DNA of 64,000 bases, taken from an uncultured Candidatus Saccharibacteria bacterium. GTDB taxonomy: Bacteria > Patescibacteriota > Andersenbacteria > UBA10190. The translations under genes were made by a program, and so were the position numbers. How positions within the stretch are numbered: the first letter of the stretch is position 1; each line of letters begins with the position of its first letter. Below, piece by piece: positions 1,380 to 57,816 of this stretch. The stretch is taken from positions 16,094 to 80,093 of the forward strand of contig CAYUBL010000001.1 in the NCBI GenBank assembly GCA_964443125.1. The letters are read 5' to 3'. Under the pieces are notes generated by a model. It searched no databases, was not told the DNA's origin, and was given only the letters and a program-made list of their open reading frames with translations.

Positions 1380-2549
1380 ATGCGAATCGTACTTACCGGA
1401 GGGGGAACAGGAGGACACATCACTCCGTTCGAATCGATCATCGAACACCTGCGCATGGTGCATGCGAAAGAAAAAGGCAACTTGCCGAAGTTCCTCGATC
1501 CAGAAACGATTGAAATCTCGTTCATGGGTCCGCTTACGCCGGAGGGGCAAGAGATGTTCTCGTCATACCACATCCCCGCTATCCATATTCCGTCAGGGAA
1601 GATGCGGCGTTACGCTTCGCCGCTTACCATTATCGACATGCTATTCCGGCTGCCGTACGGCATTCTTCGCGGGCTGGCAATACTGTGGCGCATTATGCCC
1701 GATGTCGTCATCAGCAAAGGCGGATACGGGAACATTCCTGCTATTATTGCCGCCATCGTATATCGCATTCCGATCGTCATTCACGAATCAGACGTCGTAC
1801 CCGGCGCTTCAAACCGGTTTACCATGCGCTTTGCTGCGGCCATTACGCTCGGATTCGCCGTATCCCGAGAATATATCAGCGAGTGGAAACACAAGCTGTT
1901 CGTAACCGGTACTCCTGTCCGAGTGAGCTCGACCACTACGAATAAAAACGGGGCAAAGGCAACATTCCACATTCCGGAATCAGAACCGCTCATTCTGGTT
2001 ATGGGCGGAAGCCAAGGGGCGCAGCAAATCAATGAAGCGCTGCTTCCGGCCCTTCCCGAGCTGATTGAAAAAATGGCGATTGTACATATCGCCGGTCCGC
2101 GACAGTTTGAAGCGGTCCAGAAACTCGCATCAGAACTGCTGGCGAGCAGCTCTCGCAAAGCATTGTATAAAGTATTTCCATATGTGCAGAACAACATGAC
2201 TGCCGCGCTTCTTGCATGCGATGCTGCGGTGACACGAGCGGGTGCCAGCAGTCTTGCTGAAATTGCGCGATTTCGCATTCCTGCTCTCATTATCCCGCTC
2301 GCATCCGCCGCAAACGATCATCAGCGCAAAAACGCTTTGGCATTTGAAGCGGCTGGAGGAGCGCTTGTACTGGACCCCGACAATGTAAGTCCGAACTTGC
2401 TCAAGCAAAGCATCCTTCGGCTTATCTCAGACGCATCGCTGCAAGAGACACTCAAGAAAAACCTTGCCGCACTCGACTTTCCCAATGCCGCGCAAGATAT
2501 CGCCGCGCTATCTATAAAAATTGCCAGCGGCCTGCGCCCCTCCGTATGA
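1380..2549 (+). CDS. murG: Undecaprenyl-PP-MurNAc-pentapeptide GlcNAc transferase MurG
   Basis: N-terminal MRIVLTGGGTGGHITP motif, GT28 C-terminal domain (GGSQGA...), dcw context. Confidence 0.9.
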   Translation: MRIVLTGGGTGGHITPFESIIEHLRMVHAKEKGNLPKFLDPETIEISFMGPLTPEGQEMFSSYHIPAIHIPSGKMRRYASPLTIIDMLFRLPYGILRGLAILWRIMPDVVISKGGYGNIPAIIAAIVYRIPIVIHESDVVPGASNRFTMRFAAAITLGFAVSREYISEWKHKLFVTGTPVRVSSTTTNKNGAKATFHIPESEPLILVMGGSQGAQQINEALLPALPELIEKMAIVHIAGPRQFEAVQKLASELLASSSRKALYKVFPYVQNNMTAALLACDAAVTRAGASSLAEIARFRIPALIIPLASAANDHQRKNALAFEAAGGALVLDPDNVSPNLLKQSILRLISDASLQETLKKNLAALDFPNAAQDIAALSIKIASGLRPSV

Positions 2550-3772
2550 ACCGGGTACTGTTTCTCGGCGCGGGGGGAACAGGCATGCAAGGACTTGCGT
2601 ATTTGTTCCGTGAAAAAGGAGATGCGGTACTTCTTACCGACGATAACCCCGAGTTTCCCGGCTTGAGCCAAGAGGAAGCCGCGGCGCATCTTCAGGACAT
2701 TTCGCTCATGGTGTACACCGATGCGGCTCCTGAAACGCACGAACTTCGCCGACTGGCTCGAGAAAAATCCGTCCGGCAAATCCCATATCACGAAGCGCTC
2801 GGCGAATTCTCGCGCGCATATACGACCATTGCCGTCACCGGAACGCACGGAAAATCTTCCACCACCGCATTCCTTGCGCATATGTGCATTGAAGCGGGCA
2901 TCGACCCGACCGTATTGGTGGGAGCCCGCATGCCTTCGCTTCCTGGAGGACACGCACGGCTGGGCAAAAGCAAATATTTTATCGTAGAAGCGGACGAATA
3001 CCGCCAGCATTTTCTTCCTCTTGCTCCTGCGCACGCCATTATTACCAGTATCGACTTCGATCATCCGGATGCATTCACTTCGCTCGTCGATGTAGAGCTG
3101 GCGTACAGCGAGTTTCTTGCCCGTGTTGCGTCCGGAGGAACAGTTGCGGTTCCGAGGCATGAATACGAAAACCACCCCGGCATTTCTTGGCCGCACGGCA
3201 CCGACCCCGTAGAGCTCACCCTTGCCGCGCCGCTCCCCGGAGCGCATATGGCGGTCAATGCCGGCTTGGCTGCTCGTATTGCAGCCGTGATCGGTATCCC
3301 GCAAGAACAAGCACGTGTCTCCTTGCAAACTTTTCCGGGACTTGAGCGACGATTTGAATACATCGGAACGGTGCGCGGATGCGACATTCGCTCCGATTAT
3401 GGCCACCATCCTGCCGAACTTCGTGCGACCATCTCCGGCGCCCGCACTGCATACCCGGGTAAACGGCTCGCCGTGCTATTCGAAGCCCATATGCCGCTTC
3501 GGCTGCGAACGTTTTTTGATGAATTTGCGGCAGCCCTTTCGCTTGCGGACAGCATTGCCATCACACCTCCGTTCGCGCCGGCAGGCAGGGATGAAAGCGG
3601 CAGAGAAGATGCGCGGCGCCTGGTAAATACGCTCAAAAACGAAGGGAAAGACGCGCAATACGTTGAAGACGTGGATGCGTATCTCTCCCAAGGCCTTTCC
3701 GCGGATATTCTCCTCTTTTTTAGCGCCGGGCCGCTGGATTCGTTGATCCGAAAAACTGTCAAAAAGGGCTGA
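2546..3772 (+). CDS. murC: UDP-N-acetylmuramate--L-alanine ligase MurC
   Basis: Mur ligase P-loop VTGTHGKSSTTAF. ATGA overlap with the murG stop (translational coupling). Confidence 0.85.
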   Translation: MNRVLFLGAGGTGMQGLAYLFREKGDAVLLTDDNPEFPGLSQEEAAAHLQDISLMVYTDAAPETHELRRLAREKSVRQIPYHEALGEFSRAYTTIAVTGTHGKSSTTAFLAHMCIEAGIDPTVLVGARMPSLPGGHARLGKSKYFIVEADEYRQHFLPLAPAHAIITSIDFDHPDAFTSLVDVELAYSEFLARVASGGTVAVPRHEYENHPGISWPHGTDPVELTLAAPLPGAHMAVNAGLAARIAAVIGIPQEQARVSLQTFPGLERRFEYIGTVRGCDIRSDYGHHPAELRATISGARTAYPGKRLAVLFEAHMPLRLRTFFDEFAAALSLADSIAITPPFAPAGRDESGREDARRLVNTLKNEGKDAQYVEDVDAYLSQGLSADILLFFSAGPLDSLIRKTVKKG

Positions 3773-3891
3773 CAAAAAATAGATTTATCCAGAGTGGACA
3801 AAAATCAATAAGTCTCGTACGATAATTGGTCATATTTGCATATTGTGCATCATATTTGACAATATTTAATTCATATGCTAAAAAGGTATAT

Positions 3892-4965
3892 ATGAACCAA
3901 GAAACTGCGCACCAAGAATCGCAAACTGCAGTCCAAGACAAGCAAACAGTCAATTTTGCGCTTCTTACCGACGCCGCGCTTCAGGCGCTTGATGCACGCT
4001 CCCGGGATATCATTACCCGCCGATTTGGCATTGGAAAAGAGGAGAAAGAAACGCTGGAAAGCATCGGAAAAGAATACGGCATTACCCGAGAACGGGTGCG
4101 CCAAATCGAGTCAAATGCAAAGAAGGAGCTTACATCGATGCGGGATTCTTTCCAAAGCATCGAAGGGCTTTTGGTGGATATTTTCCGCCAGCATGGAGGC
4201 TTGATGGCGGAAAACCATGTGGTTTCCGAAGTGGAATCTCGCGTAGGCGATGAGATTTCCGCGCATGTCATTCATTTCTATCTGACGATTATTCCCGTAT
4301 TCTCTCTGCACCAGCCCAATGCGATGTTCGAGGCTCACTGGAAGCACGAAGCATCCCTCCATGGCAAAGAAGAGCAAATCGTACTCACCGCCATGGAAAC
4401 GCTGAAAGAAAAATCCCAGCCGATGCAGCTCTCGGATTTGATTTCTGAAATCAAGAAAACGATCGGCGAGGATGTTACCGACGCATACATTCATGCTGCG
4501 CTCGCCGCAAGCAAGAATATCGCCAAGACTGCATTTGGAGATTGGGGCCTTATCGGATGGGCAGAAACGTCTCCTCGGGGCGTAGGCGACAAGGCATTTG
4601 CCGTACTTCGCCGCAATAATGCCCCTGCGCATTTTCGGGATATTACGACCATGATCAATGCCGCAAATTTCGACCATAAGAAAGCAAATCCGCAAACCGT
4701 ACACAACGAACTTATTAAAGACGGTAGATTCGTCCTGGTGGGACGCGGCCTCTACGGGCTCAAAGAATGGGGATACGTCGCCGGAACGGTTGCCGATGTA
4801 TTGGAATCCATTTTGAAAAAATCGACTCGGCCGATGAAAAAGCAAGAACTGGTAGAAGAAGTTCTCAAGCAGCGCATGGTAAAAAAGAATACGATTCTGC
4901 TCTCGCTGCAGAATACAGCCCGCTTCGAACGCACAGACAAAGATCTGTACACGCTGCGCGCATAA
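3892..4965 (+). CDS. Protein with an N-terminal sigma-70 region-4 (HTH) domain and a roughly 280-aa uncharacterised C-terminal region
   Basis: Residues about 20-75 (LTDAALQALDARSRDIITRRFGIGKEEKETLESIGKEYGITRERVRQIESNAKKEL) are a canonical sigma-70 r4.2 HTH. No region 2/3 was recognised. AT-rich 116-bp intergenic region upstream with TTGACA-like elements. Start taken as MNQETAHQ. Confidence 0.6.
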   Translation: MNQETAHQESQTAVQDKQTVNFALLTDAALQALDARSRDIITRRFGIGKEEKETLESIGKEYGITRERVRQIESNAKKELTSMRDSFQSIEGLLVDIFRQHGGLMAENHVVSEVESRVGDEISAHVIHFYLTIIPVFSLHQPNAMFEAHWKHEASLHGKEEQIVLTAMETLKEKSQPMQLSDLISEIKKTIGEDVTDAYIHAALAASKNIAKTAFGDWGLIGWAETSPRGVGDKAFAVLRRNNAPAHFRDITTMINAANFDHKKANPQTVHNELIKDGRFVLVGRGLYGLKEWGYVAGTVADVLESILKKSTRPMKKQELVEEVLKQRMVKKNTILLSLQNTARFERTDKDLYTLRA

Positions 4966-19662: not shown

Positions 19663-19697
19663 TTGCCAGCACGAACAGATTGCGATACCATGGCTTG

Positions 19698-20861
19698 ATG
19701 CCTGAAAAAGTCGCAATTGTCCATGATGAGCTTGTCCGCCGGGGCGGGGCGGAAATGGTGCTTGAAGAACTGCTGCGAATGTACCCGCAAGCGGACGTGT
19801 ACGCGCTCTATGCCGGAAATATCCCAAAAATGACGATCGACGGCAAGACGTACGCCATCAAGACGTCTTCGCTCCAAAAATTGCCGGTATTTTTCCGAAC
19901 GCACATGAGCCGCATGCTCCCGCTATTGCCGCAATCCGCGGAGCAGTTCGACCTTTCCGGGTACGACCTTGTCATCAGCAGCGCAAGCGGGTTTGCAAAG
20001 GGGATTATCACCAGGTCGAGCGTGCCGCACCTCTGCTACTGCCATACGCCCACGCGGTACCTTTGGGATGCATCCCAATCAGTCCTCCGCGAAAGCGGGC
20101 TGGCGAAGCCGTTTTTGCGCCTCTTGTTTCATTATCTTCGGATGGTGGACTTTGCTGCAGCCCAGCGTCCGGATGCGTATGTGGCAAACTCCCTCTATAC
20201 GAAAGAAAAAATTTCCCTGTATTACCGAAGGGATGCAGCTGTCGTATATCCGGCAATCGATACGAATTTCTTCACCCCCGCCTTCGGCTCTCCCAGCGGC
20301 AGCGCTGCGGCAAATCGGCCTCGACGATATTTCTTGTGCGTAGGAAGACTGACCAAAGAAAAGCGATTTGACCATGCGATTCAAGTCATGGAGAAGCTCG
20401 GATTTCCGCTTATCATCGCCGGATCCGGGAGCGATGAAGCTCGGCTTAAGTCGCTCGCGCGAAAGAATACTACGTTCGTCGGACGCGTGTCGCAAGAAGA
20501 TTTGCGAGAGCTGTACCGGTCCGCCCGCGCGCTTATTCAGCCCGGAGTAGAGGATTTCGGCATGTCTGCAGCGGAGGCGCTCGCGTGCGGAACCCCCGTC
20601 ATTGCATTCGGAAAAGGCGGCGTCCGGGAGATTGTGGTCAACGGCGTGCACGGCGTACTATACAAAGACCAGCTTCCCGAGATGCTTGCAGAGTCTCTCC
20701 GGCAATTCCTTCGCATCGAGCGGGCGTTTTTCCCGGGCAATCTGCAGAAGCGCGCCCTCTCTTTCTCTCGAGAAGCGTTCCAAAACGGAATCCGGGAGCA
20801 AGTTGAACATCTGCTCCAAGTAAGGAATACTACAAAGTATGAAACACTCTCTTCGTCTTGA
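19698..20861 (+). CDS. Glycosyltransferase family 4 (GT-B, retaining)
   Basis: N-terminal KVAIVHDELVRRGGAEMVLEEL and C-terminal EDFGMSAAEALACGTPVIAFGKGGVREIV (GT4 EX7E-type motif). Confidence 0.8.
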   Translation: MPEKVAIVHDELVRRGGAEMVLEELLRMYPQADVYALYAGNIPKMTIDGKTYAIKTSSLQKLPVFFRTHMSRMLPLLPQSAEQFDLSGYDLVISSASGFAKGIITRSSVPHLCYCHTPTRYLWDASQSVLRESGLAKPFLRLLFHYLRMVDFAAAQRPDAYVANSLYTKEKISLYYRRDAAVVYPAIDTNFFTPAFGSPSGSAAANRPRRYFLCVGRLTKEKRFDHAIQVMEKLGFPLIIAGSGSDEARLKSLARKNTTFVGRVSQEDLRELYRSARALIQPGVEDFGMSAAEALACGTPVIAFGKGGVREIVVNGVHGVLYKDQLPEMLAESLRQFLRIERAFFPGNLQKRALSFSREAFQNGIREQVEHLLQVRNTTKYETLSSS

Positions 20862-21144
20862 GCACATTACGCTCACCGAGCTTGATGCCAAGCATTTGGA
20901 AGACAAGCTCGATCGCATCGAGAAGCATCTTACGGCTCCGTATACGGCAGATGTGCACATTCTCCGCGACGCCCATCACATAAAGGGCGATGTTATTACC
21001 TGTACCATTATCATTGAACAAGGGAAAGAAATGTTTCGAGTAGAGAGGACAAGCGACACCGTTCCAAATGCAATCGATGCGTGCATCGCCGCATTAAAAT
21101 CAAGCCTTCTTTCGAGCCACGACCGCCGAAAGGAACACAACTAA
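20839..21144 (+). CDS. hpf: Ribosome hibernation factor HPF/RaiA (short form)
   Basis: About 100 aa with a beta-alpha-beta-beta-beta-alpha pattern (LTELDAKHLEDKLDRIEKHL...VHILRD...). Classic position immediately upstream of secA. Confidence 0.6.
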   Translation: MKHSLRLEHITLTELDAKHLEDKLDRIEKHLTAPYTADVHILRDAHHIKGDVITCTIIIEQGKEMFRVERTSDTVPNAIDACIAALKSSLLSSHDRRKEHN

Positions 21145-21151
21145 AGCCGCT

Positions 21152-23812
21152 ATGGCGTTTTTCCGAAATCTTCTCCCGTTTACGGGTTCATCGCGGCATG
21201 AAAAAGCCGCGCAGGATCTTTTGCCGACTGTCGCCAAGATTACCTCTCTCGAACAAACGGTTTCCGCGATGAGCGATGACGAGCTCAGAGAGTTCGTATT
21301 GCAATGGAAAGGAAAAGCGCGGCAAGAGCTCCATGACCATGTAACAGAAATCTTTGCCGGCATTCGAGAGGCGGGGCGCCGCACGCTCGGCATGCGGCTA
21401 TTCGACGTCCAACTCATCGGAGGATTGGCGCTTTTAACCGACTCCATCGCGGAAATGAAGACAGGAGAGGGGAAAACGTTCGTTGCTACGCTTCCGCTGA
21501 TATTTAATGCATTGGCGGAAAAAGGCGCGCATTTGGTAACCGTGAACGAATACCTGGCGCAGCGCGATGCCGATTGGATGCGGCCGATATACGAATTCTT
21601 CGGGCTCTCGGTAGGAGTAATCCTTGCCGGCCAAACGCCAGAAGAAAAGCGGGCGGCATATGCGGCCGATATCACGTACGGAACGAATAATGAATTCGGT
21701 TTCGATTATCTGCGCGATAACATGGCGCAGAGCTTATCATCGCTTGTACAACGGGACTTGTATTACGCGCTCGTGGATGAGGTGGACAGCATTTTAATCG
21801 ATGAAGCGCGTACGCCCCTTATCATATCCGCCCCCGATACGGACTCCACTGCGCTGTACGACCAATTCTCGCGGCTCGTGCCGCTTCTGAAAGCGGGAGA
21901 ACACTACAACGTCGACGAAAAACGCAAAGCTGCAACGCTTACCGATGACGGCGCGACTTTCGTCGAGCAACAGCTCGGCATAGACAACATGTATGCGGAC
22001 AAAGGCATTCGGTTCGTCCATCATTTGGAACAAGCGTTGCGGGCGCATACCATGTACCATCGTGACAAAGATTACATTGTCCAAGACGGCCGCGTCGTCA
22101 TTGTCGACGAATTTACCGGCCGCCTGATGGAGGGCCGCCGATATTCCGAAGGGCTCCACCAAGCTCTTGAAGCGAAAGAGCGGGTTCCCGTCCAGCAAGA
22201 GAGCAGGACATTGGCGTCGATTACGTTCCAGAATTTCTTCCGCCTGTATTCGCATATCGGCGGCATGACCGGTACGGCAATTACATCTGCGGAAGAATTC
22301 GAGCAAGTATACAATCTGGATGTCGTCGTAGTTCCGACTAACAAACAGATGATCCGCAAAGACCAGCCGGACAAGATTTACATGAACGAACAGGCAAAAT
22401 ATCGCGCGCTGGTTGCGGATATTAAAGACCGACATGCAAAGGGCCAGCCGGTATTGGTGGGAACAATCGCAATTGAAAAGTCCGAATATATTTCCGATCT
22501 GCTGAAAGCAGCCGGGGTTCCGCATGAAGTGCTGAACGCCAAACACCACGCCCGGGAAGCAGAAATCATATCCCGCGCAGGCCAAAAAGGCGCCGTTACC
22601 ATTTCCACGAACATGGCAGGCCGCGGAACGGATATCAAGCTCGGCGAAGGTGTCGCCGAAATCGGCGGACTTGCCGTGCTGGGTACCGAGCGGCATGAAG
22701 CCCGCCGCATCGATAACCAGCTGCGCGGACGGTCCGGCCGCCAAGGAGATCCGGGCGAGACGCAATTTTACGTCAGCATGGAAGATGACATGATGCGCGT
22801 ATTCGGCGGAAGCAGGATTCAGAGCATCATGGAGCGGCTCAACGTCCCGGAGGACGAACCAATCGTGAATAAAATGGTAAGCCGCGCGCTCGAAGGAGCG
22901 CAGGAGCGGGTAGAGGGCTATTACTTCGACATGCGCAAGCAGGTGCTGTCCTATGACAACGTATTAAACAAACAGCGGAACGCAATCTATACGCTGCGCC
23001 GCACCATTCTTCGGGACGGCAAGTGGAAAGACCCAAACAAAGACCCGGAAGACCTCCACACGTACATCCTTTCTTTGGCAGAAAACCAGGCATCGCTTCT
23101 GACCGCAACGCATACGACAACATCCCATGAAGAAGACTGGAATCTGGAGGAAATCGCGGAATCCGTCCATGCGGCAGCCAACACGCCGACCGATGAAGTG
23201 CAGAGAAATCTTTCCGGGATCGTCGCTGAACATATCCCATCCGGTCCGGATGAGGCGCGCAATGCGATTACCGTATACATTCGAGATATCATTGCACATC
23301 GCATTACAGAAAAACAAAACCAGCTAGGCAATGAAACGATGGATCAGCTGGAGCGCGCAGCGGCGCTGCGCTCTATTGATGCGCTCTGGATGGACCACCT
23401 CGACACGATGGACTATCTGCGTACGGGAATCGGCCTTCGCGGGTACGGACAGCGAGATCCGCTGGTGGAGTATCAAAAAGAAGGCCACCGCATGTTCCAA
23501 GAGCTGCTCGCATCCATCCGCTCATCGCTGCTCGATACCGTTCTGCGCGCAGAAGCGATCCGCCAAGAAACGACAGCGCAAGGAATCGCGCATCATGATC
23601 AAGCTGCATCTCCGATGGCCCAGCCTTCGCCCGGCCAGCCGGCCGAGCTTCGGCAGGCAAGCCAGTCCCATGTACACGAGAGACATTCGCATGCTGCAAC
23701 AGATACCGATTCCAGCGGCACCATCCGCAATCCGTATAAAGATGTAGGCCGAAACGACCCATGCCCGTGTGGATCGGGGAAAAAATTTAAGAAGTGTCAC
23801 GGAAAAAGCTAA
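21152..23812 (+). CDS. secA: Preprotein translocase ATPase SecA
   Basis: 886 aa with DEAD-motor motifs (MKTGEGKT, DEVDSILIDEARTPLIIS) and the C-terminal zinc motif CPCGSGKKFKKCHG. Confidence 0.95.
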   Translation: MAFFRNLLPFTGSSRHEKAAQDLLPTVAKITSLEQTVSAMSDDELREFVLQWKGKARQELHDHVTEIFAGIREAGRRTLGMRLFDVQLIGGLALLTDSIAEMKTGEGKTFVATLPLIFNALAEKGAHLVTVNEYLAQRDADWMRPIYEFFGLSVGVILAGQTPEEKRAAYAADITYGTNNEFGFDYLRDNMAQSLSSLVQRDLYYALVDEVDSILIDEARTPLIISAPDTDSTALYDQFSRLVPLLKAGEHYNVDEKRKAATLTDDGATFVEQQLGIDNMYADKGIRFVHHLEQALRAHTMYHRDKDYIVQDGRVVIVDEFTGRLMEGRRYSEGLHQALEAKERVPVQQESRTLASITFQNFFRLYSHIGGMTGTAITSAEEFEQVYNLDVVVVPTNKQMIRKDQPDKIYMNEQAKYRALVADIKDRHAKGQPVLVGTIAIEKSEYISDLLKAAGVPHEVLNAKHHAREAEIISRAGQKGAVTISTNMAGRGTDIKLGEGVAEIGGLAVLGTERHEARRIDNQLRGRSGRQGDPGETQFYVSMEDDMMRVFGGSRIQSIMERLNVPEDEPIVNKMVSRALEGAQERVEGYYFDMRKQVLSYDNVLNKQRNAIYTLRRTILRDGKWKDPNKDPEDLHTYILSLAENQASLLTATHTTTSHEEDWNLEEIAESVHAAANTPTDEVQRNLSGIVAEHIPSGPDEARNAITVYIRDIIAHRITEKQNQLGNETMDQLERAAALRSIDALWMDHLDTMDYLRTGIGLRGYGQRDPLVEYQKEGHRMFQELLASIRSSLLDTVLRAEAIRQETTAQGIAHHDQAASPMAQPSPGQPAELRQASQSHVHERHSHAATDTDSSGTIRNPYKDVGRNDPCPCGSGKKFKKCHGKS

Positions 23813-23923
23813 TTCAAAGGATTATCCTTGGAATTGCATTTAGACGGCTTCTAGGCACAATATTTCAAGCTGGAGAAATAAATCTCGACTAAACCACATG
23901 AGAAATGTATACTTGTTAATGCT

Positions 23924-24118
23924 ATGTGGAGCTTTATACCAAAATTCTTTTCGAAAGATAACGAAACAACTCTCTTAACCTCTTCGGTTAATGAAGATGT
24001 TATTTCTGATGCGTATAAAAGCGTAGAGAAAGAAATTGAATCTCTTCAAAAGTACGATAAGGGCGAAAAAGAAATAAATGCACCCGATCTCAAAAGTACT
24101 TTGCGAAGCGTATCGTAA
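23924..24118 (+). CDS. Small ORF upstream of and overlapping doc; candidate antitoxin (Phd-like position)
   Basis: 64 aa, acidic/charged. It overlaps the doc start by 41 nt in another frame. No sequence family recognised. Confidence 0.3.
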   Translation: MWSFIPKFFSKDNETTLLTSSVNEDVISDAYKSVEKEIESLQKYDKGEKEINAPDLKSTLRSVS

Positions 24119-24467
24119 GCTTCATGAGAAAGGACAAGTTGCTTTTCCGTTGCACAAAAAGCAACAGGATGCAATTGATAGTGTAGTTAAAACTGTAAAT
24201 GCTACATATTTTGACATTGAGCGCTTCTCTTCACCGGAGGACAAAGCAGTAGCATATCTTTGTTTTATTATTAAGAATCATCCCGTCACTGATGGAAATA
24301 AAAGGCTCAGCATTCTGTGGTTTCAAGTGTATTGCGACGTTCATAACTTAGATCCAGATATAACAACATACGGGGGACTTGATATTCTTGCAGTTTCAAT
24401 TGAAAAATCCGACCTAGAAATGGAAACTTTAATAGAAATAGTAAAATCCATACTATTTGGAAAATAA
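24078..24467 (+). CDS. doc: Doc (death-on-curing)/Fic-family toxin
   Basis: 129 aa, starts MHPIS (compare P1 Doc MRHIS). Fic/Doc motif HPVTDGNKR (HxFx[DN]GNKR). Lies in a locally AT-rich segment between secA and the NUDIX genes. Confidence 0.75.
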   Translation: MHPISKVLCEAYRKLHEKGQVAFPLHKKQQDAIDSVVKTVNATYFDIERFSSPEDKAVAYLCFIIKNHPVTDGNKRLSILWFQVYCDVHNLDPDITTYGGLDILAVSIEKSDLEMETLIEIVKSILFGK

Positions 24468-24475
24468 TTTCTTTT

Positions 24476-24889
24476 ATGCCAACTGACATCCACAAAAGCG
24501 CATTACTGATCCTGAACGAAGATGCTACGGCGTTTTTGGTTTCTATGAACAAGGGAAAAGAACACTGGATTATGCCAGGAGGGAAGATTGAAGCAGGCGA
24601 AACGCCGGAAGATGCGCTGGTGCGAGAAATACAAGAAGAACTCGCGTGCGATCTGGATAAAGAAAGTTTAGAGCACATTACGGACTATGTCGGCCCTGCG
24701 GCAGGCATGCCGGGCGTGATGGTGCATATTAAGCTGTATGCAGGCACGATAAACGGCACGCCGACGCCGAATGCGGAAATCGAGAAACTCGGCTGGCTGT
24801 CGAAAGAAGATATCGGCAACATGGTAGCCAGCGAAACCATCCGCACGCTCATTATTCCGGATCTCGTGAAGCGTGGTATTTTGAAATAA
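24476..24889 (+). CDS. NUDIX hydrolase
   Basis: Nudix box GGKIEAGETPEDALVREIQEELA. Confidence 0.8.
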   Translation: MPTDIHKSALLILNEDATAFLVSMNKGKEHWIMPGGKIEAGETPEDALVREIQEELACDLDKESLEHITDYVGPAAGMPGVMVHIKLYAGTINGTPTPNAEIEKLGWLSKEDIGNMVASETIRTLIIPDLVKRGILK

Positions 24890-24945
24890 GTATGATACCG
24901 GATAAAGAAGTTCCCCTTGGTGGACGCATGTTTTAATATCAACAT

Positions 24946-25125
24946 ATGGACCCATTAATCCCAGAGCAACGGCCAAGGGTTGGCATCGGCGTCATGGTGA
25001 TGAAAGATGGCAAGGTGCTGCTGGGCAAACGCAAAGGGTCGCATGGTGCAGGCGAATACGCGTGGCCGGGCGGACATATGGAATACATGGAGAGCTTTGA
25101 AGATGTGGCCAAGCGCGAAGTATAA
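24946..25125 (+). pseudogene. Truncated NUDIX hydrolase remnant (59 codons ending inside the Nudix box)
   Basis: MDPLIPEQRPRVGIGVMVMKDGKVLLGKRKGSHGAGEYAWPGGHMEYMESFEDVAKREV, then TAA. The stop falls right after the REV of the Nudix box, 4 nt before the next intact NUDIX gene. Confidence 0.65.
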
Positions 25126-25129
25126 GTAT

Positions 25130-25612
25130 ATGGCCAACAAACTTCTTACGCTTTGCATTATCCGCCAAGGGGACAATGTTCTGCTCGGTATGAAAAAGCG
25201 CGGCATGGGAATAAACAAGTGGAATGGATTCGGAGGGAAAGTGGAAGCAGGGGAGACAATCGAAGAGGCGACGATGCGAGAGGTTTCGGAAGAGGCGGGG
25301 ATCACTGTTTCGTCCGTAGAGAAAATGGGTGTGTTGGACTTTACCCTGCCAAATGAAGAAAACGTGTGGCAAACACATATATTCCTGGCACGAGACTTTA
25401 CCGGAACTCCGATAGAAACTGATGAAATGAAACCGCAATGGTTTACTATCGACACCATTCCCTATGAGCATATGTGGGCGGATGACAAATACTGGATGCC
25501 GCTGTTTTTACAGCATAAACCGTTTACGGGTACATTTCGATTTAAAGATTTCGACACGATTATCGATCAGGAGCTTCGAGAAATACCCTTGGCAATGCAA
25601 TGGCACCTATGA
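25130..25612 (+). CDS. NUDIX hydrolase
   Basis: Nudix box GGKVEAGETIEEATMREVSEEAGI. Start taken as MANKLLTLCII (the track ORF extends upstream in the same frame). Confidence 0.8.
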   Translation: MANKLLTLCIIRQGDNVLLGMKKRGMGINKWNGFGGKVEAGETIEEATMREVSEEAGITVSSVEKMGVLDFTLPNEENVWQTHIFLARDFTGTPIETDEMKPQWFTIDTIPYEHMWADDKYWMPLFLQHKPFTGTFRFKDFDTIIDQELREIPLAMQWHL

Positions 25613-47094: not shown

Positions 47095-47165
47095 TTCCCG
47101 GGCAGGGATTCGAACCCCGATTCAGAGATCCAAAGTCTCTTGTCCTGCCTTTAGACGACCCGGGA
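47095..47165 (-). tRNA. tRNA-Gln (anticodon UUG)
   Basis: Manual fold of the reverse complement: acceptor UCCCGGG/CCCGGGA (the U1-A72 pair typical of bacterial tRNA-Gln), D arm GTCT/GGAC, anticodon stem AGAGA/TCTCT with loop CTTTGGA (U33, UUG, G37), T arm CGGGG-TTCGAAT-CCCTG, discriminator A. CCA is not encoded. Confidence 0.8.
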
Positions 47166-54481: not shown

Positions 54482-54538
54482 ATACTCATCATATCGAAAA
54501 ATATTCGGTTTTTGTACGTTATAAGATAGAATACAAAC

Positions 54539-55030
54539 ATGCCTATCCAGAAACAAAATGTTGGCAATGCAGGAGAGTATTACATTGCTGCTAGACTATC
54601 TGCAGAGAATTTTATCGCGACAATAACTCTGGGCCGTGCTGAAAAGTACGATATTCTTGCGCTAAGCCCAACCTCTAGAAGTGTACGACTTTCCGTCAAA
54701 ACGCAATTCTTAAAAACATCAAAATCATTCCCCCTGTCCGAAAAGGATGAAAGAGGGGAGTCAGAAGATTTTTACTATTGTTTTATCCGACTCAATGAAT
54801 TTCAGCAAGAGCCTGATTTTTGGATCATACCAAGCACTATTGTATGTCCGATACTAAAAAATTCACACGCAAAATGGCTAAGCGGAATGGGTAAGAACGG
54901 CCACATCAGAAAAGATACCTCGATGAGACTCCTGCCGCTGATCGTTTCGAGCGGATTACTAGAATTCTATCCCGAAAAATGGGAAGATGACTTAGCGCAG
55001 TATTACAAAAATATTGAACAATTGACCTAA
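54539..55030 (+). CDS. PD-(D/E)xK-fold (Hjc/restriction-endonuclease-like) nuclease candidate
   Basis: N-terminal VGNAGEYYIAARLSAENF...AEKYDILAL...VRLSVKT reproduces the GxxGE-x(n)-DIxA-x(n)-(E/S)VK pattern of Hjc-type resolvases and small restriction-like nucleases. The third acidic position is Ser. Confidence 0.45.
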   Translation: MPIQKQNVGNAGEYYIAARLSAENFIATITLGRAEKYDILALSPTSRSVRLSVKTQFLKTSKSFPLSEKDERGESEDFYYCFIRLNEFQQEPDFWIIPSTIVCPILKNSHAKWLSGMGKNGHIRKDTSMRLLPLIVSSGLLEFYPEKWEDDLAQYYKNIEQLT

Positions 55031-55043
55031 AAGAATATAAGAA

Positions 55044-55544
55044 ATGAGAAAAACAATTATAATATCACCGACAAAACCATTAATAGTAACAATAACACCA
55101 CTTGCTCTTGCTATAATATCCGATGATTTTCATAACGCAGCAGAAAAACTCTCGATTAAAGATCGTATTTCTTTGGTAAAATATTATTTGTACCTAGCGG
55201 CAATAGAGAGAGGATTAAAAGCAGCTATCCTAAGCAAAGAATTCACGAAAGAAAAAAAGGGGTATCTGAAAAATAGAATCGGACATGATATCGAAAGGCT
55301 ATATCAAGATTTTAAAAAATCATTTGCTTTGGATTTATTCAACAAAAGTGACCTAAAATCTTTAAAAAAAGCTAACGCGAGATACAGAGACAAGGGATTT
55401 GAATACTTTGACAGTGATATGCTGTATCAAGCAGCAATAGGGTTTAAAGATTTACCAAGCCTAGAAGGGATTCGCAGTATAAGCAAGAAAGTTAATGCTT
55501 TTCTTATACGAAATAAGTCTTTCATAGAACAGGGGTCCAGCTAA
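55044..55544 (+). CDS. Hypothetical alpha-helical protein (loose HEPN-like resemblance, unconfirmed)
   Basis: 166 aa with ERGLKAAILSKEF...LKNRIGHDIERLY. A charged R-x-x-H-D-x-E patch in a helical scaffold, which does not cleanly fit the Rx4-6H motif. Confidence 0.3.
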   Translation: MRKTIIISPTKPLIVTITPLALAIISDDFHNAAEKLSIKDRISLVKYYLYLAAIERGLKAAILSKEFTKEKKGYLKNRIGHDIERLYQDFKKSFALDLFNKSDLKSLKKANARYRDKGFEYFDSDMLYQAAIGFKDLPSLEGIRSISKKVNAFLIRNKSFIEQGSS

Positions 55545-55592
55545 TATTCGGTTTTTGTATCTAGTAAAAATGGGATACTATTAATATTAGGT

Positions 55593-56549
55593 ATGTCTAC
55601 AAGACAAGCAGTCAAGAATATACAAGAGGAATTTGGCCTTAGTCCAATATATGCTGAACGAGTTTACTCGTTAGCAAATAAAGATAATTTATCTGAAGAC
55701 GTGGCACGGATTATCGCGGAAAAGCCCAAACCTTTTGTAAAATGGGTAGGAGGCAAACGCCAGCTTTTGACACAGTTTAAAACTCTCAATCTCTACCCTC
55801 CATCTCGTTTTGATATTCATAAAGGAACGTATTATGAGCCTTTTATTGGTGGAGGCGCTGTATTCTTCGATCTCCTACCAGCAAAGGCGGTTCTATCTGA
55901 TTTAAACGAAGAACTCGTCATCACATACAAAGTTATTCAACATGATGCACAAAAACTCATTGAATCTTTAAAAAAGCATAAGAACAACAAAGAATATTTT
56001 CTAAAAGTACGAGCGCTGGACTGGAAAGACTTGAGCGACATTGAAACTGCTTCTCGATTTATTTTCTTAAATCGAACTTGTTTTAATGGGCTGTATCGAG
56101 TTAACAGCAAAGGGCAATTCAATGTTCCATTTGGAAAGTATGTAAAACCTCTTATTTGCGATGAAGAGAATATAAGAAAAGTATCAAAAGCACTACAGGG
56201 CATTAAGATCATACATAGTGACTATAAAAAAACAGTACGCAAAGCTCAAGAAGGAGACTTTGTATATTTTGACCCACCTTACTATCCAATCAGTAAAACG
56301 TCGTCATTTACCTCGTATACAAAAGAGTCTTTTTTAGAGAACAATCAGATAGAGCTTCGAGACACGTTTGCAGAATTGCACAAAAGGGGCTGTTTTATAA
56401 TGCTCTCGAACTCTGATACACCATTTATTAATGATATTTACTCTACAATCAAAGGGGCCACTATTACAAAGGTTCGTGCCGGTAGGGCGGTAAACGCCAA
56501 TGCGAGAGGGAGAGGGAAGATTGCCGAGATTCTCGTAACTAATTACTAA
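55593..56549 (+). CDS. Dam-family (D12 class) N6-adenine DNA methyltransferase
   Basis: Collinear with E. coli Dam/DpnM: FVKWVGGKRQLL, YYEPFIGGGAVFF (motif I), FLNRTCFNGLYRVNSKGQFNVPFGKY, and DFVYFDPPYYPISKTSSFTSYT (motif IV DPPY). Confidence 0.85.
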   Translation: MSTRQAVKNIQEEFGLSPIYAERVYSLANKDNLSEDVARIIAEKPKPFVKWVGGKRQLLTQFKTLNLYPPSRFDIHKGTYYEPFIGGGAVFFDLLPAKAVLSDLNEELVITYKVIQHDAQKLIESLKKHKNNKEYFLKVRALDWKDLSDIETASRFIFLNRTCFNGLYRVNSKGQFNVPFGKYVKPLICDEENIRKVSKALQGIKIIHSDYKKTVRKAQEGDFVYFDPPYYPISKTSSFTSYTKESFLENNQIELRDTFAELHKRGCFIMLSNSDTPFINDIYSTIKGATITKVRAGRAVNANARGRGKIAEILVTNY

Positions 56550-56556
56550 AAATAAT

Positions 56557-57816
56557 ATGACGAAGATATCTGATGCCTGGGAGAAAGTGTTTGCAATAAA
56601 AAACTACGACCTAACAAAGAACCTGCATTCCATTACAGCTAAAGAGATTAAACAGATTACAGGTGAAGAGCCACGTATAATGGCAAAGTTCGATTCTTCT
56701 ATGGACCTACCAAACATCATGAAGAAAAATGGATATTTTTTATTGCCAGTAAAAAACGGAGAATACGCTATAGTTCGCGGTAACGGCTTCCATACACTTG
56801 AAAAAACAAGAGATTGGACAAACCACACATCACGTATCAAATTTAATTTAACAACAGCTGGTCGCGGGTTAAGTGAAATGCAGTATTTGGACTATAGCTT
56901 TAACTCTGGAGCGCTTGAGGACATTCTAGACATTACGCCCCTGTACCAATCTATTCGTGGACGTGAATACAGCAAACAATTTCACTTTGCGGTCGACAAG
57001 ACCAAAATTAACGTTGAATCCGTTCAGCTTGAAGTAGATTCTGGTCTTGAGGGCGAAGATTCCATTGTCCTTATTGAAGCTAAAGTCAAAAGTCCCGAAG
57101 ATTTTATTATTCGTCAACTTTTCTACCCATATAATCATTTTAGAATTGTATCTCCAGACAAGAGAGTAATTCCTGTCTTTTTTGTTTATGAACCATCATC
57201 ACAACTTTATCATTTCTGGATATACGAATTTACAGATCCCGCCAATTATAACTCTATTCGCCTGAAAGAGATCAAATCACTAATGATAAGCACTGAACAA
57301 GAGATAAAACTATCCGACATCAAGCCAAAGGGAATAGTTAATTACAAGGATCTCATTCCTCAAGCAAATGACCTGAATAAAGTAATTGAGCTCGCATTTA
57401 AGGTTAAAGAAGGCGTAAATCATTATAAAAAAGTTGCGGAATATTTTAAATTTAATGAACGACAAAGTAGCTACTACAGAGAAGCAGCAGAGGCCCTGGG
57501 ACTAGTCATAAGCGAAAAAGGTGCTTACCAATTAACCGACATTGGTAAACATTTAGTAGCCCTGCCGGCAGAAAAACGTAATTTATTTATGGTGGAACTA
57601 TTAAGTGATTTCAGCTTAATTAAAAGAAGTCTGAATATTCTTGAGAGCAACGGTAAATTACTCCAAGATGACCTAGAAAATATTATTGAGCAACAATCTT
57701 ACTTAAGTCAGTCGACAATTTCGCGTCGCGCTGGATCTCTTAAAAGGTGGCTTGAATGGATATCAGAAGCCACTGGTTCCTTTACAAACGAAGAGAATGA
57801 GTTCCGAACAGAATAA
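56557..57816 (+). CDS. Putative type II restriction endonuclease (PD-(D/E)xK core) with a C-terminal winged-helix-like extension
   Basis: Lies between two DNA methyltransferase genes. EVDSGLEGEDSIVLIEAKVKS fits a D-x(n)-E-x-K nuclease motif. No match to DpnII recognised by eye. Confidence 0.5.
   Translation: MTKISDAWEKVFAIKNYDLTKNLHSITAKEIKQITGEEPRIMAKFDSSMDLPNIMKKNGYFLLPVKNGEYAIVRGNGFHTLEKTRDWTNHTSRIKFNLTTAGRGLSEMQYLDYSFNSGALEDILDITPLYQSIRGREYSKQFHFAVDKTKINVESVQLEVDSGLEGEDSIVLIEAKVKSPEDFIIRQLFYPYNHFRIVSPDKRVIPVFFVYEPSSQLYHFWIYEFTDPANYNSIRLKEIKSLMISTEQEIKLSDIKPKGIVNYKDLIPQANDLNKVIELAFKVKEGVNHYKKVAEYFKFNERQSSYYREAAEALGLVISEKGAYQLTDIGKHLVALPAEKRNLFMVELLSDFSLIKRSLNILESNGKLLQDDLENIIEQQSYLSQSTISRRAGSLKRWLEWISEATGSFTNEENEFRTE

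What the first reader, a model, noticed from the sequence alone, without database searches (positions are those of the whole stretch)
23815..24475. AT-rich mini-island carrying a Doc/Fic-family toxin, with an overlapping upstream small ORF as candidate antitoxin
Between secA and the NUDIX genes the composition shifts to AT-rich. The 129-aa protein has the Doc motif HPVTDGNKR and a P1 Doc-like N-terminus (MHPIS). The only upstream candidate antitoxin (64 aa) overlaps doc by 41 nt in another frame and has no Phd/YefM similarity. That points to either a non-canonical antitoxin, a frameshifted locus, or an orphan toxin.
Basis: partly seen in the sequence, partly recalled or inferred. Interest (0 to 1): 0.5.

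Follow-up and report, generated by a model that had tools for sequence, protein, structure and literature searches.

The report
Doc-type toxin with novel overlapping antitoxin
A 0.67-kb AT-rich cassette inserted right after secA in an uncultivated Patescibacteria genome carries a Doc-type (Fic-fold) toxin gene. Overlapping its start is a conserved 64-codon gene of an undescribed family, most likely its antitoxin, so this is a modest new variant of a well-known system.

Summary
Window 23806-24474 is a compositionally foreign cassette (GC 0.35, GC3 about 0.3, against 0.51 and about 0.6). The closest relative (SecA 83% identical) has the same gene order but a different gene in this slot. The 129-aa ORF passes Pfam Fic/DOC. 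Its HPVTDGNKR motif aligns residue for residue with the P1 Doc catalytic motif. Its high-confidence model matches P1 Doc best (TM 0.65-0.68).

The 64-aa upstream ORF is a real gene of an unannotated family: 88 clusters, almost all 48-112 aa, with the core KEIESLRxYDRGEKEIxAP. It has no similarity to Phd/YefM or any library family.

Among 41 distinct small-ORF sequences in the loci I hold, 37 lie immediately upstream of this same Doc subfamily. The Doc start codon always sits inside the small gene's conserved 3' part, in the +1 frame. About 130 loci with more distant Doc genes lack the small ORF. Five loci keep an intact small gene next to a deleted, truncated or frameshifted Doc gene.

Best reading: a type II toxin-antitoxin-like pair with a new antitoxin family and translational coupling. 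The "frameshifted locus" and "orphan toxin" readings are rejected. Toxicity, neutralisation and target are untested.

The parts
23806..24474 (.). Inserted cassette: the stretch with no counterpart in the closest relative. It runs from the last bases and stop codon of secA to 1 nt before the ATG of the NUDIX gene.
   Evidence: blastn of L179 (SecA 83% identical, same gene order) against the window: homology ends at 23805 and resumes at 24475. L179 carries an unrelated 137-aa NUDIX gene in between. GC is 0.35 against 0.51 for the window.
23813..23923 (+). 111-nt AT-rich leader between the secA stop and the small ORF. It contains one sigma-70-like site (TCGACT-17-TATACT, 23885-23913).
   Evidence: GC 0.351. 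The promoter-like match is 9 of 12, and the number of such sites does not exceed the shuffled controls, so it is only a candidate. No terminator-like site on the + strand after secA.
23924..24118 (+). Small ORF, 64 aa: candidate antitoxin and member of an unannotated family.
   Evidence: Homologues share 33-66% identity in other genomic contexts. The family has 88 clusters in 1.84 billion representatives. In the non-overlapping core, codon positions 1/2/3 differ at 0.36/0.29/0.61, the pattern of a coding sequence. The AF2 model has helices 11-21, 24-45 and 56-63, with pLDDT 85-94 over residues 21-50. No hit in Pfam, NCBIfam, PADLOC or PHROGs, and none in the PDB by sequence or fold.
23999..24088 (+). 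Conserved core of the small protein (residues 26-55, VISDAYKSVEKEIESLQKYDKGEKEINAPD). Family consensus: VIxxAYxxRxKEIESLRxYDRGEKEIxAP.
   Evidence: Invariant I38 S40 L41 G47 K49 I51, and at least 90% conserved E37 Y44 D45 E48, in 38 sequences.
24078..24118 (+). 41-nt dual-coding overlap. The Doc start codon lies inside the small ORF's conserved 3' region, in the +1 frame.
   Evidence: Read directly. The same arrangement occurs in 36 distinct sequences: 18 have an ATG at the HPIS codon, and 17 of the other 18 have an ATG 24 nt upstream inside the small ORF's Y-D codons. Third-position freedom of the small ORF drops in the overlap zone, to 0.33 from 0.61.
24078..24467 (+). Doc-type Fic-fold protein, 129 aa: candidate toxin.
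   Evidence: Pfam PF02661 scores 37.9 bits against a cut-off of 24. PHROG 577 'Doc-like toxin' E 3.5e-10. PDB chain 9vzc_A 'death-on-curing family protein' E 2.3e-7 with the family profile. The AF2 model has pLDDT 94.5 and pTM 0.88. The five best Foldseek PDB matches are all P1 Doc (TM 0.61-0.68); other Fic proteins score TM 0.52 or less.
24279..24305 (+). Catalytic motif HPVTDGNKR (residues 68-76).
   Evidence: D72 G73 N74 K75 R76 are invariant and H68 is at least 90% conserved in 34 family members. hhalign places H68/D72/N74/K75/R76 on P1 Doc H66/D70/N72/K73/R74.

Best explanation
The cassette is a two-gene, type II toxin-antitoxin-like module.

Toxin. The downstream gene encodes a small Doc-type Fic-fold enzyme. 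By analogy with P1 Doc it is a protein kinase: the Lys in ...GNKR... replaces the Gly of AMPylating Fic proteins. It would arrest growth by phosphorylating a translation factor, with EF-Tu as the default guess.

Antitoxin. The upstream gene encodes a 64-residue, mostly helical protein of a new family. I infer that its conserved, highly charged core (KEIESLxKYDxGEKEI) binds the Doc protein and blocks its nucleotide or substrate groove, as the C-terminal helix of Phd does for P1 Doc.

Coupling. The toxin's start codon lies inside the antitoxin's conserved 3' coding region, in the +1 frame with a 41-nt overlap. Toxin synthesis would therefore be translationally coupled to, and not exceed, antitoxin synthesis.

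Location. The pair is accessory cargo in a variable slot directly downstream of secA in Andersenbacteria-like Patescibacteria.

Shown: gene content, family membership, motif, fold, conservation of the pairing and overlap, and insertion boundaries. Inferred: kinase activity, target, toxicity, neutralisation by binding, and translational coupling.
For: Toxin identity: Pfam Fic above cut-off; invariant DGNKR and near-invariant His; motif aligned to P1 Doc catalytic residues; confident model whose best structural matches are P1 Doc. Doc's kinase mechanism and Phd's blocking of the NTP site are from the literature (PMC7758455, read).

The partner is a real gene: protein-level conservation across contexts and a coding pattern of substitutions.

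The pairing is specific:
- All 7 distinct close-subfamily Doc loci first examined carry the small ORF. This count includes L092, which was found through a small-ORF homologue. None of about 75 genome loci with distant Doc or RhuM-Fic genes carries it.
- The small ORF was also not found in IMG/VR viral contigs, where 45 loci hold distant Doc genes.
- Searching from the small-ORF side, 32 of 33 metagenome loci have this Doc subfamily or a damaged copy of it immediately downstream. The remaining locus, L157, keeps only a decayed remnant.
- Overall, 37 of 41 distinct small-ORF sequences are Doc-linked.
- Pairwise divergences of the two proteins correlate (Mantel r 0.48, p 0.011, 9 pairs).

The architecture is conserved: the +1 frame and a 29-41-nt overlap measured from the HPIS codon in 31 of 32 loci, with start codons as described.

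The decay pattern fits a toxin: five loci keep an intact small ORF beside a deleted (L157), truncated (L163), catalytic-core-deleted (L166) or frameshifted (L172, L094) Doc gene. No locus showed the reverse.

Accessory nature: empty sites in L179 and L180, patchy presence downstream of secA (L004, L092), and foreign composition.
Against:
- The small protein has no recognisable DNA-binding domain, unlike most type II antitoxins.
- Motif-bearing homologues also occur without any Doc gene: upstream of C5 DNA methylases (L096, L143), fused to a GNAT acetyltransferase (L145) and in a phage-like gene block (L144). The motif is therefore not Doc-specific.
- The protein fails the NCBIfam DOC_P1 cut-off (16 vs 38.65 bits) and is only 11-14% identical to P1 Doc, so target and chemistry may differ.
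- The decay asymmetry is biased: most of those loci were found by searching for the small ORF, and the two frameshifts could be assembly errors.
- Window and L004 share the secA linkage with similar nucleotide identity for secA (71.5%) and the pair (70.6%). The pair may therefore be old and domesticated rather than an addictive element.
Confidence: 0.65

Rival explanations
1. The small protein is a genuine, co-inherited partner of the Doc enzyme but not a neutralising antitoxin. It could be a regulator, adaptor or activator carried on a portable roughly 35-residue module that also accompanies other enzymes of mobile elements. Alternatively, the pair works as an anti-phage abortive-infection system rather than a classical addiction module.
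For: Homologues of the motif sit upstream of C5 DNA methylases (L096, L143), are fused to a GNAT acetyltransferase next to an integrase (L145), and occur in a phage-like block containing NinG (L144). The nearest larger relatives of the toxin are RhuM-Fic fusion proteins, which match the PADLOC candidate defence family PDC-S23.
Against: 37 of 41 distinct family members are tied to this one Doc subfamily with a fixed overlap. Toxin genes decay while the small gene stays intact, which is what a neutraliser predicts and an activator does not. Antitoxin families commonly re-pair with different toxins, so other partners do not exclude an antitoxin role.
Confidence: 0.2
2. The Doc-like protein is not a toxin here. 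It is a domesticated housekeeping or regulatory enzyme of these Patescibacteria, kept in the secA neighbourhood together with a small inhibitor or regulatory subunit.
For: The pair lies downstream of secA in three different lineages (window, L004, L092). Its divergence between window and L004 is similar to that of secA. It is tightly packed with the NUDIX genes (8-nt spacer).
Against: It is absent from the two closest relatives, which have the same gene order. The pair is found in at least four unrelated neighbourhoods (DnaG, DUF4153, ribosomal L10/L12, others). Its GC3 is strongly foreign. The Doc gene is repeatedly lost.
Confidence: 0.1
3. The two ORFs are one gene. Either it is interrupted by a sequencing or mutational frameshift, or it is read as a fusion protein by programmed +1 frameshifting.
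For: The two frames overlap, and the overlap is purine- and A-rich (GAAAAAGAAATAAATG). One locus (L012) has an in-frame A_AAA_AAG heptamer.
Against: The same +1 overlap occurs in 36 distinct sequences, which rules out an accidental frameshift. The window, L001 and L146 have a stop codon immediately before the Doc ATG. The 129-aa protein alone is a complete six-helix Doc fold matching full-length P1 Doc. The conserved N-terminus (HPIS..LC..Y) is read in the Doc frame within the overlap. No slippery or stop-context motif is conserved at the small ORF's end. A -1 heptamer would shift into the wrong frame.
Confidence: 0.03
4. Orphan Doc toxin: the upstream ORF is a chance open frame.
For: No database family matches the small ORF.
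Against: A 78-codon open frame at 35% GC has a chance probability of about 0.003. The protein is conserved in more than 40 distinct loci with a coding substitution pattern.
Confidence: 0.01

Closest known systems
Phd-Doc of bacteriophage P1 (type II TA; Doc is a Fic-fold kinase of EF-Tu Thr382)
   Same: Toxin size is similar (129 vs 126 aa), and both have an all-helical six-helix fold (TM 0.65-0.68). The catalytic motif H-x-[FV]-x-D-[AG]-N-K-R aligns residue for residue. In both, the antitoxin gene is a small gene immediately upstream on the same strand.
   Different: Only 11-14% sequence identity, and below the NCBIfam DOC_P1 cut-off. The partner has no similarity to Phd/YefM and no recognisable DNA-binding domain. 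The genes overlap by 41-65 nt, with the toxin start inside the partner's conserved motif. The model shows a short beta-hairpin at residues 43-48. From memory, P1 Doc lacks such a hairpin; I did not check this here. The hosts are Patescibacteria and the module was not found in phage contigs.
Composite Doc modules with non-Phd antitoxins, e.g. TasA-TasB (MazE-Doc) of Bacillus thuringiensis pGI1 (PMC1626090, title and abstract seen)
   Same: They show that Doc toxins re-pair with unrelated antitoxin families. This case would be one more such pairing.
   Different: The partner here is not MazE/AbrB-like, nor RHH- or HTH-like by any library search. It is a new family of about 60 residues.
Class I Fic toxin-antitoxin pairs (VbhA-VbhT, FicA-FicT), whose antitoxin supplies an inhibitory helix with the motif (S/T)xxxE(G/N)
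   Same: A small antitoxin-like protein of about 60 aa encoded just upstream of a Fic-fold enzyme. Inhibition by a helix inserted at the nucleotide site is a plausible shared logic.
   Different: The toxin motif is GNKR (Doc/kinase type), not GNGR (AMPylator type). The structural match to VbhT and other Fic proteins is poor (TM 0.52 or less). The (S/T)xxxE(G/N) motif is absent: 2 chance matches in 38 sequences, at non-equivalent positions.
RhuM-Fic/DOC fusion proteins (about 330 aa; Pfam Virulence_RhuM plus Fic; PADLOC candidate family PDC-S23)
   Same: They are the closest larger sequence relatives of the Doc domain (45-68 bits with the family profile; PADLOC E 1e-12; plasmid hits annotated RhuM/Fic/DOC).
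   Different: The window protein has no RhuM N-terminal domain. The small ORF is not related to the N-terminal or linker region of those proteins (hhalign probability 0.4%). None of those loci carries the small ORF.
PDB 9vzc, 'death-on-curing family protein' (139 aa)
   Same: The only solved structure found by sequence (E 2.3e-7 with the family profile). It has a Doc-type motif, HCFYNANKR.
   Different: A distant relative. I found no paper on it, so its partner and function are unknown to me.

Membership tests
Fic/DOC superfamily (Pfam PF02661) | Score at or above Pfam's gathering threshold | tested here: met
   37.9 bits against a cut-off of 24; residues 12-85 match profile positions 11-92 of 93. 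All 78 homologues but one carry PF02661.
Doc subfamily (P1 Doc-type kinases) | Catalytic motif HxFx(D/N)(A/G)NKR, with Lys in place of the second Gly of the Fic motif HxFx(D/E)GNGRxxR | tested here: met
   HPVTDGNKR at residues 68-76, with Val at the Phe position. DGNKR is invariant and His at least 90% conserved in 34 sequences. The motif aligns to P1 Doc H66/D70/N72/K73/R74. The motif definitions come from PMC7758455 and general knowledge.
Doc subfamily (P1 Doc-type kinases) | Doc-like compact helical fold | tested here: met
   AF2 pLDDT 94.5. The top five Foldseek PDB matches are P1 Doc chains (3k33, 3kh2, 3dd7): TM 0.61-0.68 over 124-126 alignment columns, probability 1.00, though E-values are only about 0.02-0.08.
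Doc subfamily (P1 Doc-type kinases) | NCBIfam TIGR01550 (DOC_P1) score at or above cut-off | tested here: not met
   16 bits against a cut-off of 38.65, and only residues 58-80 match. I therefore describe it as Doc-type by motif and fold, not as a member of the TIGR01550 subfamily.
Doc subfamily (P1 Doc-type kinases) | Phosphorylates EF-Tu (Thr382) and arrests translation | not testable with these tools
   Needs a kinase assay or toxicity assay.
Type II toxin-antitoxin module | Two small adjacent co-oriented genes that are co-inherited across genomes | tested here: met
   37 of 41 distinct small-ORF sequences lie directly upstream of this Doc subfamily. The small ORF is absent from about 75 genome loci with distant Doc genes and was not found in viral contigs, where 45 loci hold distant Doc genes. 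Mantel r 0.48, p 0.011.
Type II toxin-antitoxin module | The toxin inhibits growth, and the antitoxin binds and neutralises it | not testable with these tools
   Indirect support only: five loci have a damaged Doc gene and an intact small ORF.
Type II toxin-antitoxin module | The antitoxin carries a DNA-binding domain for autoregulation (usual, not universal) | tested here: inconclusive
   No HTH, RHH, AbrB or Phd/YefM hit in Pfam or NCBIfam. The monomer model is three helices, with no PDB fold match. A dimeric fold cannot be excluded.
Phd/YefM antitoxins | Sequence or profile similarity to Phd/YefM | tested here: not met
   No Pfam or NCBIfam hit at E up to 1. hhalign of the family profile against P1 Phd gives probability 0.2%.
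Class I Fic antitoxins (VbhA/FicA type) | Inhibitory helix motif (S/T)xxxE(G/N) | tested here: not met
   The pattern is absent from the window protein. It occurs in only 2 of 38 family members, at non-equivalent positions.
RhuM-Fic/DOC proteins (PADLOC PDC-S23) | N-terminal Virulence_RhuM domain fused to the Doc domain (about 330 aa) | tested here: not met
   The window protein is 129 aa with only a Fic hit. It matches only positions 203-323 of the 327-position PDC-S23 profile.
Genomic island / accessory cassette | Present or absent between close relatives at a conserved site, with deviant composition | tested here: met
   L179 (SecA 83% identical) and L180 (76%) keep the order GT-HPF-secA...NUDIX...AP-endonuclease-secD but lack the pair. 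Homology breaks at 23805 and resumes at 24475. GC3 is 0.27-0.31 against 0.53-0.62. No flanking repeats, integrase or tRNA.

The most novel reading that the evidence does not exclude
The roughly 35-residue motif AYxxRxxEIESLRxY(D/S)RGEKxI may define a portable inhibitor or immunity module of Patescibacteria mobile elements. On this reading it docks onto several unrelated nucleotide-cofactor enzymes: Doc kinases (ATP), GNAT acetyltransferases (acetyl-CoA) and C5 DNA methyltransferases (SAM). The Doc pairing seen here would be just its commonest use. The obligatory embedding of the partner's start codon in the motif's coding sequence would be a dedicated dosage-control device.
Probability: 0.12. 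Interest if true: 0.65.

Novelty: new variant of a known kind. Interest (0 to 1): 0.42.

Why it matters
Doc is the only Fic-fold kinase toxin whose mechanism is understood. Nearly all that is known comes from Phd-Doc of phage P1 and its enterobacterial relatives.

This locus represents a compact Doc lineage largely confined to Patescibacteria (candidate phyla radiation). Its partner is a small protein family that carries no annotation in any library searched. Characterising it would give a second, independent solution for neutralising a Doc enzyme. It would also provide a natural test of translational coupling through a long dual-coding overlap, and a marker for accessory cassettes in these very small genomes.

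It is not a new kind of system. The value is incremental: a new antitoxin family, an annotation for about 90 clusters of 'hypothetical proteins', and an example of a cargo slot downstream of secA.

Tried and rejected
1. Complex prediction. I joined the small protein and the Doc protein with a Gly-Ser linker in a 9-row paired alignment (A4).

2. Small ORF as a split-off piece of RhuM-Fic fusion proteins. hhalign against 53 such proteins gave probability 0.4%. Rejected.

3. Similarity to Phd and to the Fic inhibitory-helix motif. None.

4. Fold search with the small-protein model against the PDB: no match at E up to 10. A profile search of PDB sequences gave only short spurious hits to SasG repeats and AcrIIC4.

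5. Phage origin. IMG/VR holds only distant Doc genes (26-44% identity) and no small-ORF relative. Plasmids hold only RhuM/Fic relatives at 24-32% identity.

6. Insertion scars. No convincing direct or inverted repeats flank the cassette; there are only short AT-rich chance matches. There is no integrase, and no tRNA within 20 kb.

7. Own promoter or terminator. There is one 9/12 promoter-like site upstream of the small ORF, but the counts do not exceed the shuffled controls. Transcription is therefore unresolved.

8. Programmed frameshift. No conserved slippery site, and the frame relation is +1. Rejected.

9. Literature. I found no paper on Doc systems in Patescibacteria or on PDB entry 9vzc.

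10. Organism name. An exact look-up of four window proteins returned no names. The affiliation comes only from named SecA homologues.
Full report
**1. Observation**

- secA ends at 23812.
- A 64-codon ORF runs 23924-24118 (+).
- A 129-codon ORF runs 24078-24467 (+) and overlaps the first by 41 nt, in the +1 frame relative to the small ORF.
- A NUDIX gene starts at 24476, only 8 nt after the Doc stop.
- In the Doc frame a TAA lies immediately before the ATG at 24078, so this gene cannot start further upstream in this genome.

The composition shift is real.
- Over 23800-24549 the GC fraction is 0.35-0.38, against 0.50-0.62 on either side.
- The pair has GC3 of 0.27-0.31, against 0.53-0.62 for secA, both NUDIX genes, the AP-endonuclease-like gene, secD and secF.
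- It lies about three standard deviations below the window mean for 600-nt windows.
- A 78-codon stop-free frame at 35% GC is expected with probability about 0.003.

**2. The 129-aa protein**

- It passes Pfam's Fic/DOC model: 37.9 bits against a cut-off of 24.
- It hits PHROG 577 'Doc-like toxin'.
- It does not reach the NCBIfam DOC_P1 cut-off: 16 bits against 38.65.
- A database search found 78 homologues of 81-160 aa, most of them 125-145 aa. Those that carry a name are mostly from Patescibacteria (Kaiserbacteria, Zambryskibacteria, 'Patescibacteria group'); one is from Bradyrhizobium brasilense.
- In an alignment of 34 homologues, D72 G73 N74 K75 R76 are invariant and H68 is at least 90% conserved.
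- A profile comparison with P1 Doc places H68/D72/N74/K75/R76 on Doc H66/D70/N72/K73/R74 (E 1.6e-4). My recalled P1 Doc sequence was checked against GenBank P1 records and is 99.2% identical.
- The only solved structure reachable by sequence is 9vzc, a 'death-on-curing family protein' with the motif HCFYNANKR.
- The AlphaFold2 model is confident (pLDDT 94.5, pTM 0.88). It has six helices plus a short hairpin at residues 43-48.
- Its five best Foldseek matches in the PDB are all P1 Doc chains (TM 0.61-0.68 over 124-126 alignment columns). AMPylating Fic proteins score TM 0.52 or less.

The protein is therefore Doc-type by motif and fold, but a remote branch (11-14% identity to P1 Doc). According to the literature, Doc is a Fic-fold kinase that phosphorylates EF-Tu Thr382 because of its altered motif, and Phd inhibits it by occupying the NTP site (PMC7758455). 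Applying that chemistry to this protein is inference.

**3. The nearest larger relatives**

With the family profile, the next-best hits in species-representative genomes are proteins of about 320-370 aa. These combine an N-terminal Virulence_RhuM domain with a C-terminal Fic/Doc domain. PGAP annotates their plasmid copies as 'RhuM/Fic/DOC family'. They correspond to the PADLOC candidate defence family PDC-S23, which the window protein matches only over the C-terminal third of the profile.

**4. The 64-aa ORF is a real gene of a new family**

- Gene callers found a 62-68-aa ORF overlapping the Doc start in every homologous locus I first fetched, in four different neighbourhoods. Their products are 44-66% identical to the window's.
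- A profile search found 49 proteins of 57-109 aa, all labelled 'hypothetical', with no Pfam domain, and from Patescibacteria where named.
- An exhaustive HMMER search of 1.84 billion cluster representatives found 88 clusters, nearly all 48-112 aa.
- The family core is VIxxAYxxRxKEIESLRxYDRGEKEIxAP, with I38 S40 L41 G47 K49 I51 invariant.
- In the part that does not overlap the Doc gene (residues 26-42), pairwise differences at codon positions 1/2/3 are 0.36/0.29/0.61, the signature of purifying selection on a protein. In the overlap zone the third-position freedom falls to 0.33, as expected if both frames are constrained.
- The model is mostly helical (helices 11-21, 24-45, 56-63, with a conserved loop at 46-55). 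pLDDT is 85-94 over residues 21-50, and the N-terminus is poorly defined.
- The family matches nothing in Pfam, NCBIfam, PADLOC or PHROGs, and nothing meaningful in the PDB by sequence or fold.
- It is unrelated to Phd and lacks the (S/T)xxxE(G/N) inhibitory motif of Fic antitoxins.

**5. The pairing and the overlap are conserved**

I scanned six-frame ORFs of all held loci with HMMs of both families.
- All 7 distinct loci with a close-subfamily Doc gene first examined have the small ORF directly upstream. Six were found through the Doc protein and one (L092) through a small-ORF homologue. None of about 75 genome loci with distant Doc or RhuM-Fic genes has it.
- The small ORF was also not found in IMG/VR viral contigs, where 45 loci hold distant Doc genes.
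- Searching metagenomes from the small-ORF side gave 33 loci. In 32 of them a Doc gene of this subfamily, or a damaged copy of it, lies immediately downstream. It is in the +1 frame in 31 of those 32, overlapping by 29-41 nt counted from the HPIS codon.
- Over all held loci there are 41 distinct small-ORF sequences. Of these, 31 have an intact Doc gene, 1 has a Doc gene cut by the contig end, 5 have a damaged Doc gene, and 4 sit in non-Doc contexts.
- Two start-codon variants exist among 36 distinct sequences. In 18, including the window, an ATG stands at the MHPIS codon; in several of these a stop codon lies 0-3 nt upstream. The other 18 have a different codon there (usually Leu), and 17 of them have an ATG 24 nt further upstream, formed by the small ORF's own Tyr-Asp codons (TAT GAC), giving an MTEEKK... 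N-terminus.
- Either way, the Doc start lies inside the small protein's most conserved coding stretch.
- Pairwise divergences of the two proteins are correlated (Mantel r 0.48, p 0.011, nine pairs). The small protein evolves faster.

This rules out a chance ORF and an accidental frameshift. It makes a fusion by programmed frameshifting unnecessary and unlikely: no conserved slippery site exists, and the Doc protein alone is a complete fold.

**6. Toxin decay**

Five loci keep an intact small ORF next to a damaged Doc gene.
- L157: only a stop-ridden N-terminal remnant remains, followed by an unrelated gene.
- L163: truncated after about 40 codons.
- L166: an in-frame deletion removes residues of about 23-95, including the catalytic motif.
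- L172 and L094: frameshifts.

I saw no intact Doc gene without the small ORF. This asymmetry is what a toxin-antitoxin relationship predicts. Two caveats apply: most of these loci were found by searching for the small ORF, and the frameshifts could be assembly errors.

**7. The island and its boundaries**

Named SecA homologues at 60-72% identity are from Candidatus Andersenbacteria or the 'Patescibacteria group'. The host is therefore a Patescibacteria (CPR) bacterium, by inference from homology only.
- The closest relative, L179 (SecA 83% identical), has the same order: glycosyltransferase, HPF, secA, NUDIX genes, AP-endonuclease-like gene, secD.
- Its nucleotide homology to the window stops at 23805 and resumes at 24475, 1 nt before the ATG of the orthologous NUDIX gene (82% protein identity).
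- In between, L179 carries an unrelated NUDIX gene that is also AT-rich (GC 0.37 against 0.49-0.52).
- L180 (SecA 76%) has a DUF5674 gene in that slot.
- L004 (SecA-pair synteny, about 71% nucleotide identity for both) and L092 also carry the pair downstream of secA, but with different additional genes.
- Other copies lie next to dnaG, a DUF4153 gene, or ribosomal L10/L12 genes.
- The pair is AT-rich (0.32-0.38) in six of the seven host backgrounds examined, and below or equal to the flanks in all but one comparison. The exception, L012 at 0.53, was measured over a long stop-to-stop frame that includes upstream sequence.

The cassette is thus accessory cargo in a variable slot just after secA. 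I found no flanking repeats, integrase or tRNA, so the insertion mechanism is unknown. Whether it has its own promoter is also unresolved: one 9/12 sigma-70-like site lies at 23885-23913, which is no more than chance would give.

**8. Complication: the motif is not exclusive to Doc**

Clear homologues of the motif occur in other settings.
- Upstream of C5 DNA methyltransferases: L143 (P0191, E 1e-7, not used to build the profile) and L096 (P0127, which was used to build the profile).
- At the N-terminus of a GNAT acetyltransferase next to an integrase (P0197, L145).
- In a phage-like block of small genes containing NinG (P0180, L144).
- At the C-terminus of a 425-aa protein (P0164).

This is compatible with an antitoxin domain that re-pairs with other partners, as Doc itself does with MazE-type antitoxins (PMC1626090). 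It also leaves room for a more general role, given as the first rival explanation and the novel reading.

**9. Mechanism proposed, and its status**

- Shown: a Doc-type enzyme with an intact catalytic motif; a conserved, specific, overlapping partner gene; an accessory cassette with defined boundaries.
- Inferred: the enzyme is a growth-arresting kinase, with EF-Tu as the default target. The small protein binds it through its conserved charged helix-loop (residues of about 26-55) and blocks the active-site groove. Embedding the toxin start in the antitoxin's reading frame couples toxin translation to antitoxin translation.
- Confidence in this overall picture: 0.65.
- Rivals: a partner that is not an antitoxin, or a defence function (0.2); a domesticated non-toxic enzyme (0.1); a frameshift fusion (0.03); a chance ORF (0.01).

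**10. Novelty and verdict**

The toxin is a new, remote member of a known family. The partner is an undescribed family, and I found no literature on either in Patescibacteria. The long, strictly conserved dual-coding overlap is unusual for toxin-antitoxin pairs.

This is a new variant of a known kind of system. It is useful for annotation and is a tractable experimental target, but not a conceptual surprise. Interest 0.42.

Noticed in passing
window 54500-58600: A second, larger AT-rich stretch (600-nt windows down to GC 0.32). It encodes a D12-class N6-adenine DNA methyltransferase (55593-56549), a DUF6996/DUF6997/DUF7226 protein (56557-57816) and an N6_N4 DNA methylase (57752-58567), preceded by two ORFs with no family hit. 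An HTH plus ImmA/IrrE (Peptidase_M78) gene follows at 58700-59845. It looks like a restriction-modification or defence island.
   Followed up: partly
window 23806-25600; L179 6688-9500; L180 6629-8745; L004 1361-6240: The stretch between secA and the AP-endonuclease-like/secD genes is a variable cargo slot in related Patescibacteria. Contents differ between genomes: extra NUDIX paralogues, DUF5674, an AAA_16 ATPase, DUF3850/ASCH, HIT/DcpS, a tRNA-binding protein and a pyrophosphatase. The gene occupying the window's cassette position in L179 is also AT-rich (GC 0.37).
   Followed up: partly
L096 2501-3730; L143 89-1529; L145 3001-3657; L144 3001-3390: Proteins carrying the small ORF's motif (EIESLRxY[DS]RGEKxI) occur without any Doc gene. 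Two sit upstream of C5 cytosine DNA methyltransferases, one of them in an integrase-bearing element. One is fused to a GNAT acetyltransferase beside an integrase. One lies in a phage-like block with NinG.
   Followed up: partly
L157 2680-2760; L163 2604-2750; L166 2613-2843; L172 960-1352; L094 2610-3030: Doc genes in various states of decay, each next to an intact small ORF: a remnant with stops, a truncation, an in-frame deletion of the catalytic core, and two frameshifts.
   Followed up: yes
P0012 (Bradyrhizobium brasilense, 8.98-Mb contig): A 139-aa homologue, 63% identical to the window's Doc protein, is annotated in a cultivated alphaproteobacterium, far outside Patescibacteria. This suggests inter-phylum transfer. 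I could not check whether the small ORF accompanies it.
   Followed up: no
window 20839-20861: The ribosome hibernation factor gene (S30AE/HPF, 20839-21144) overlaps the 3' end of the upstream glycosyltransferase ORF (19680-20861) by 23 nt. The same overlap appears in L179 (genes at 2543-3706 and 3684-3989), so tight gene overlaps are common in this lineage.
   Followed up: no
window 24946-25612: The second NUDIX gene has an ambiguous start. A 59-aa ORF (24946-25125) with a NUDIX-like N-terminus lies in another frame just upstream of the 201-aa ORF (25007-25612), whose NUDIX domain begins only at residue 49. This may be a frameshift or a miscalled start.
   Followed up: no
window 47095-47165 (-): The only Rfam hit at gathering threshold in the 64-kb window is a single tRNA. 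No rRNA or other RNA family was found.
   Followed up: no
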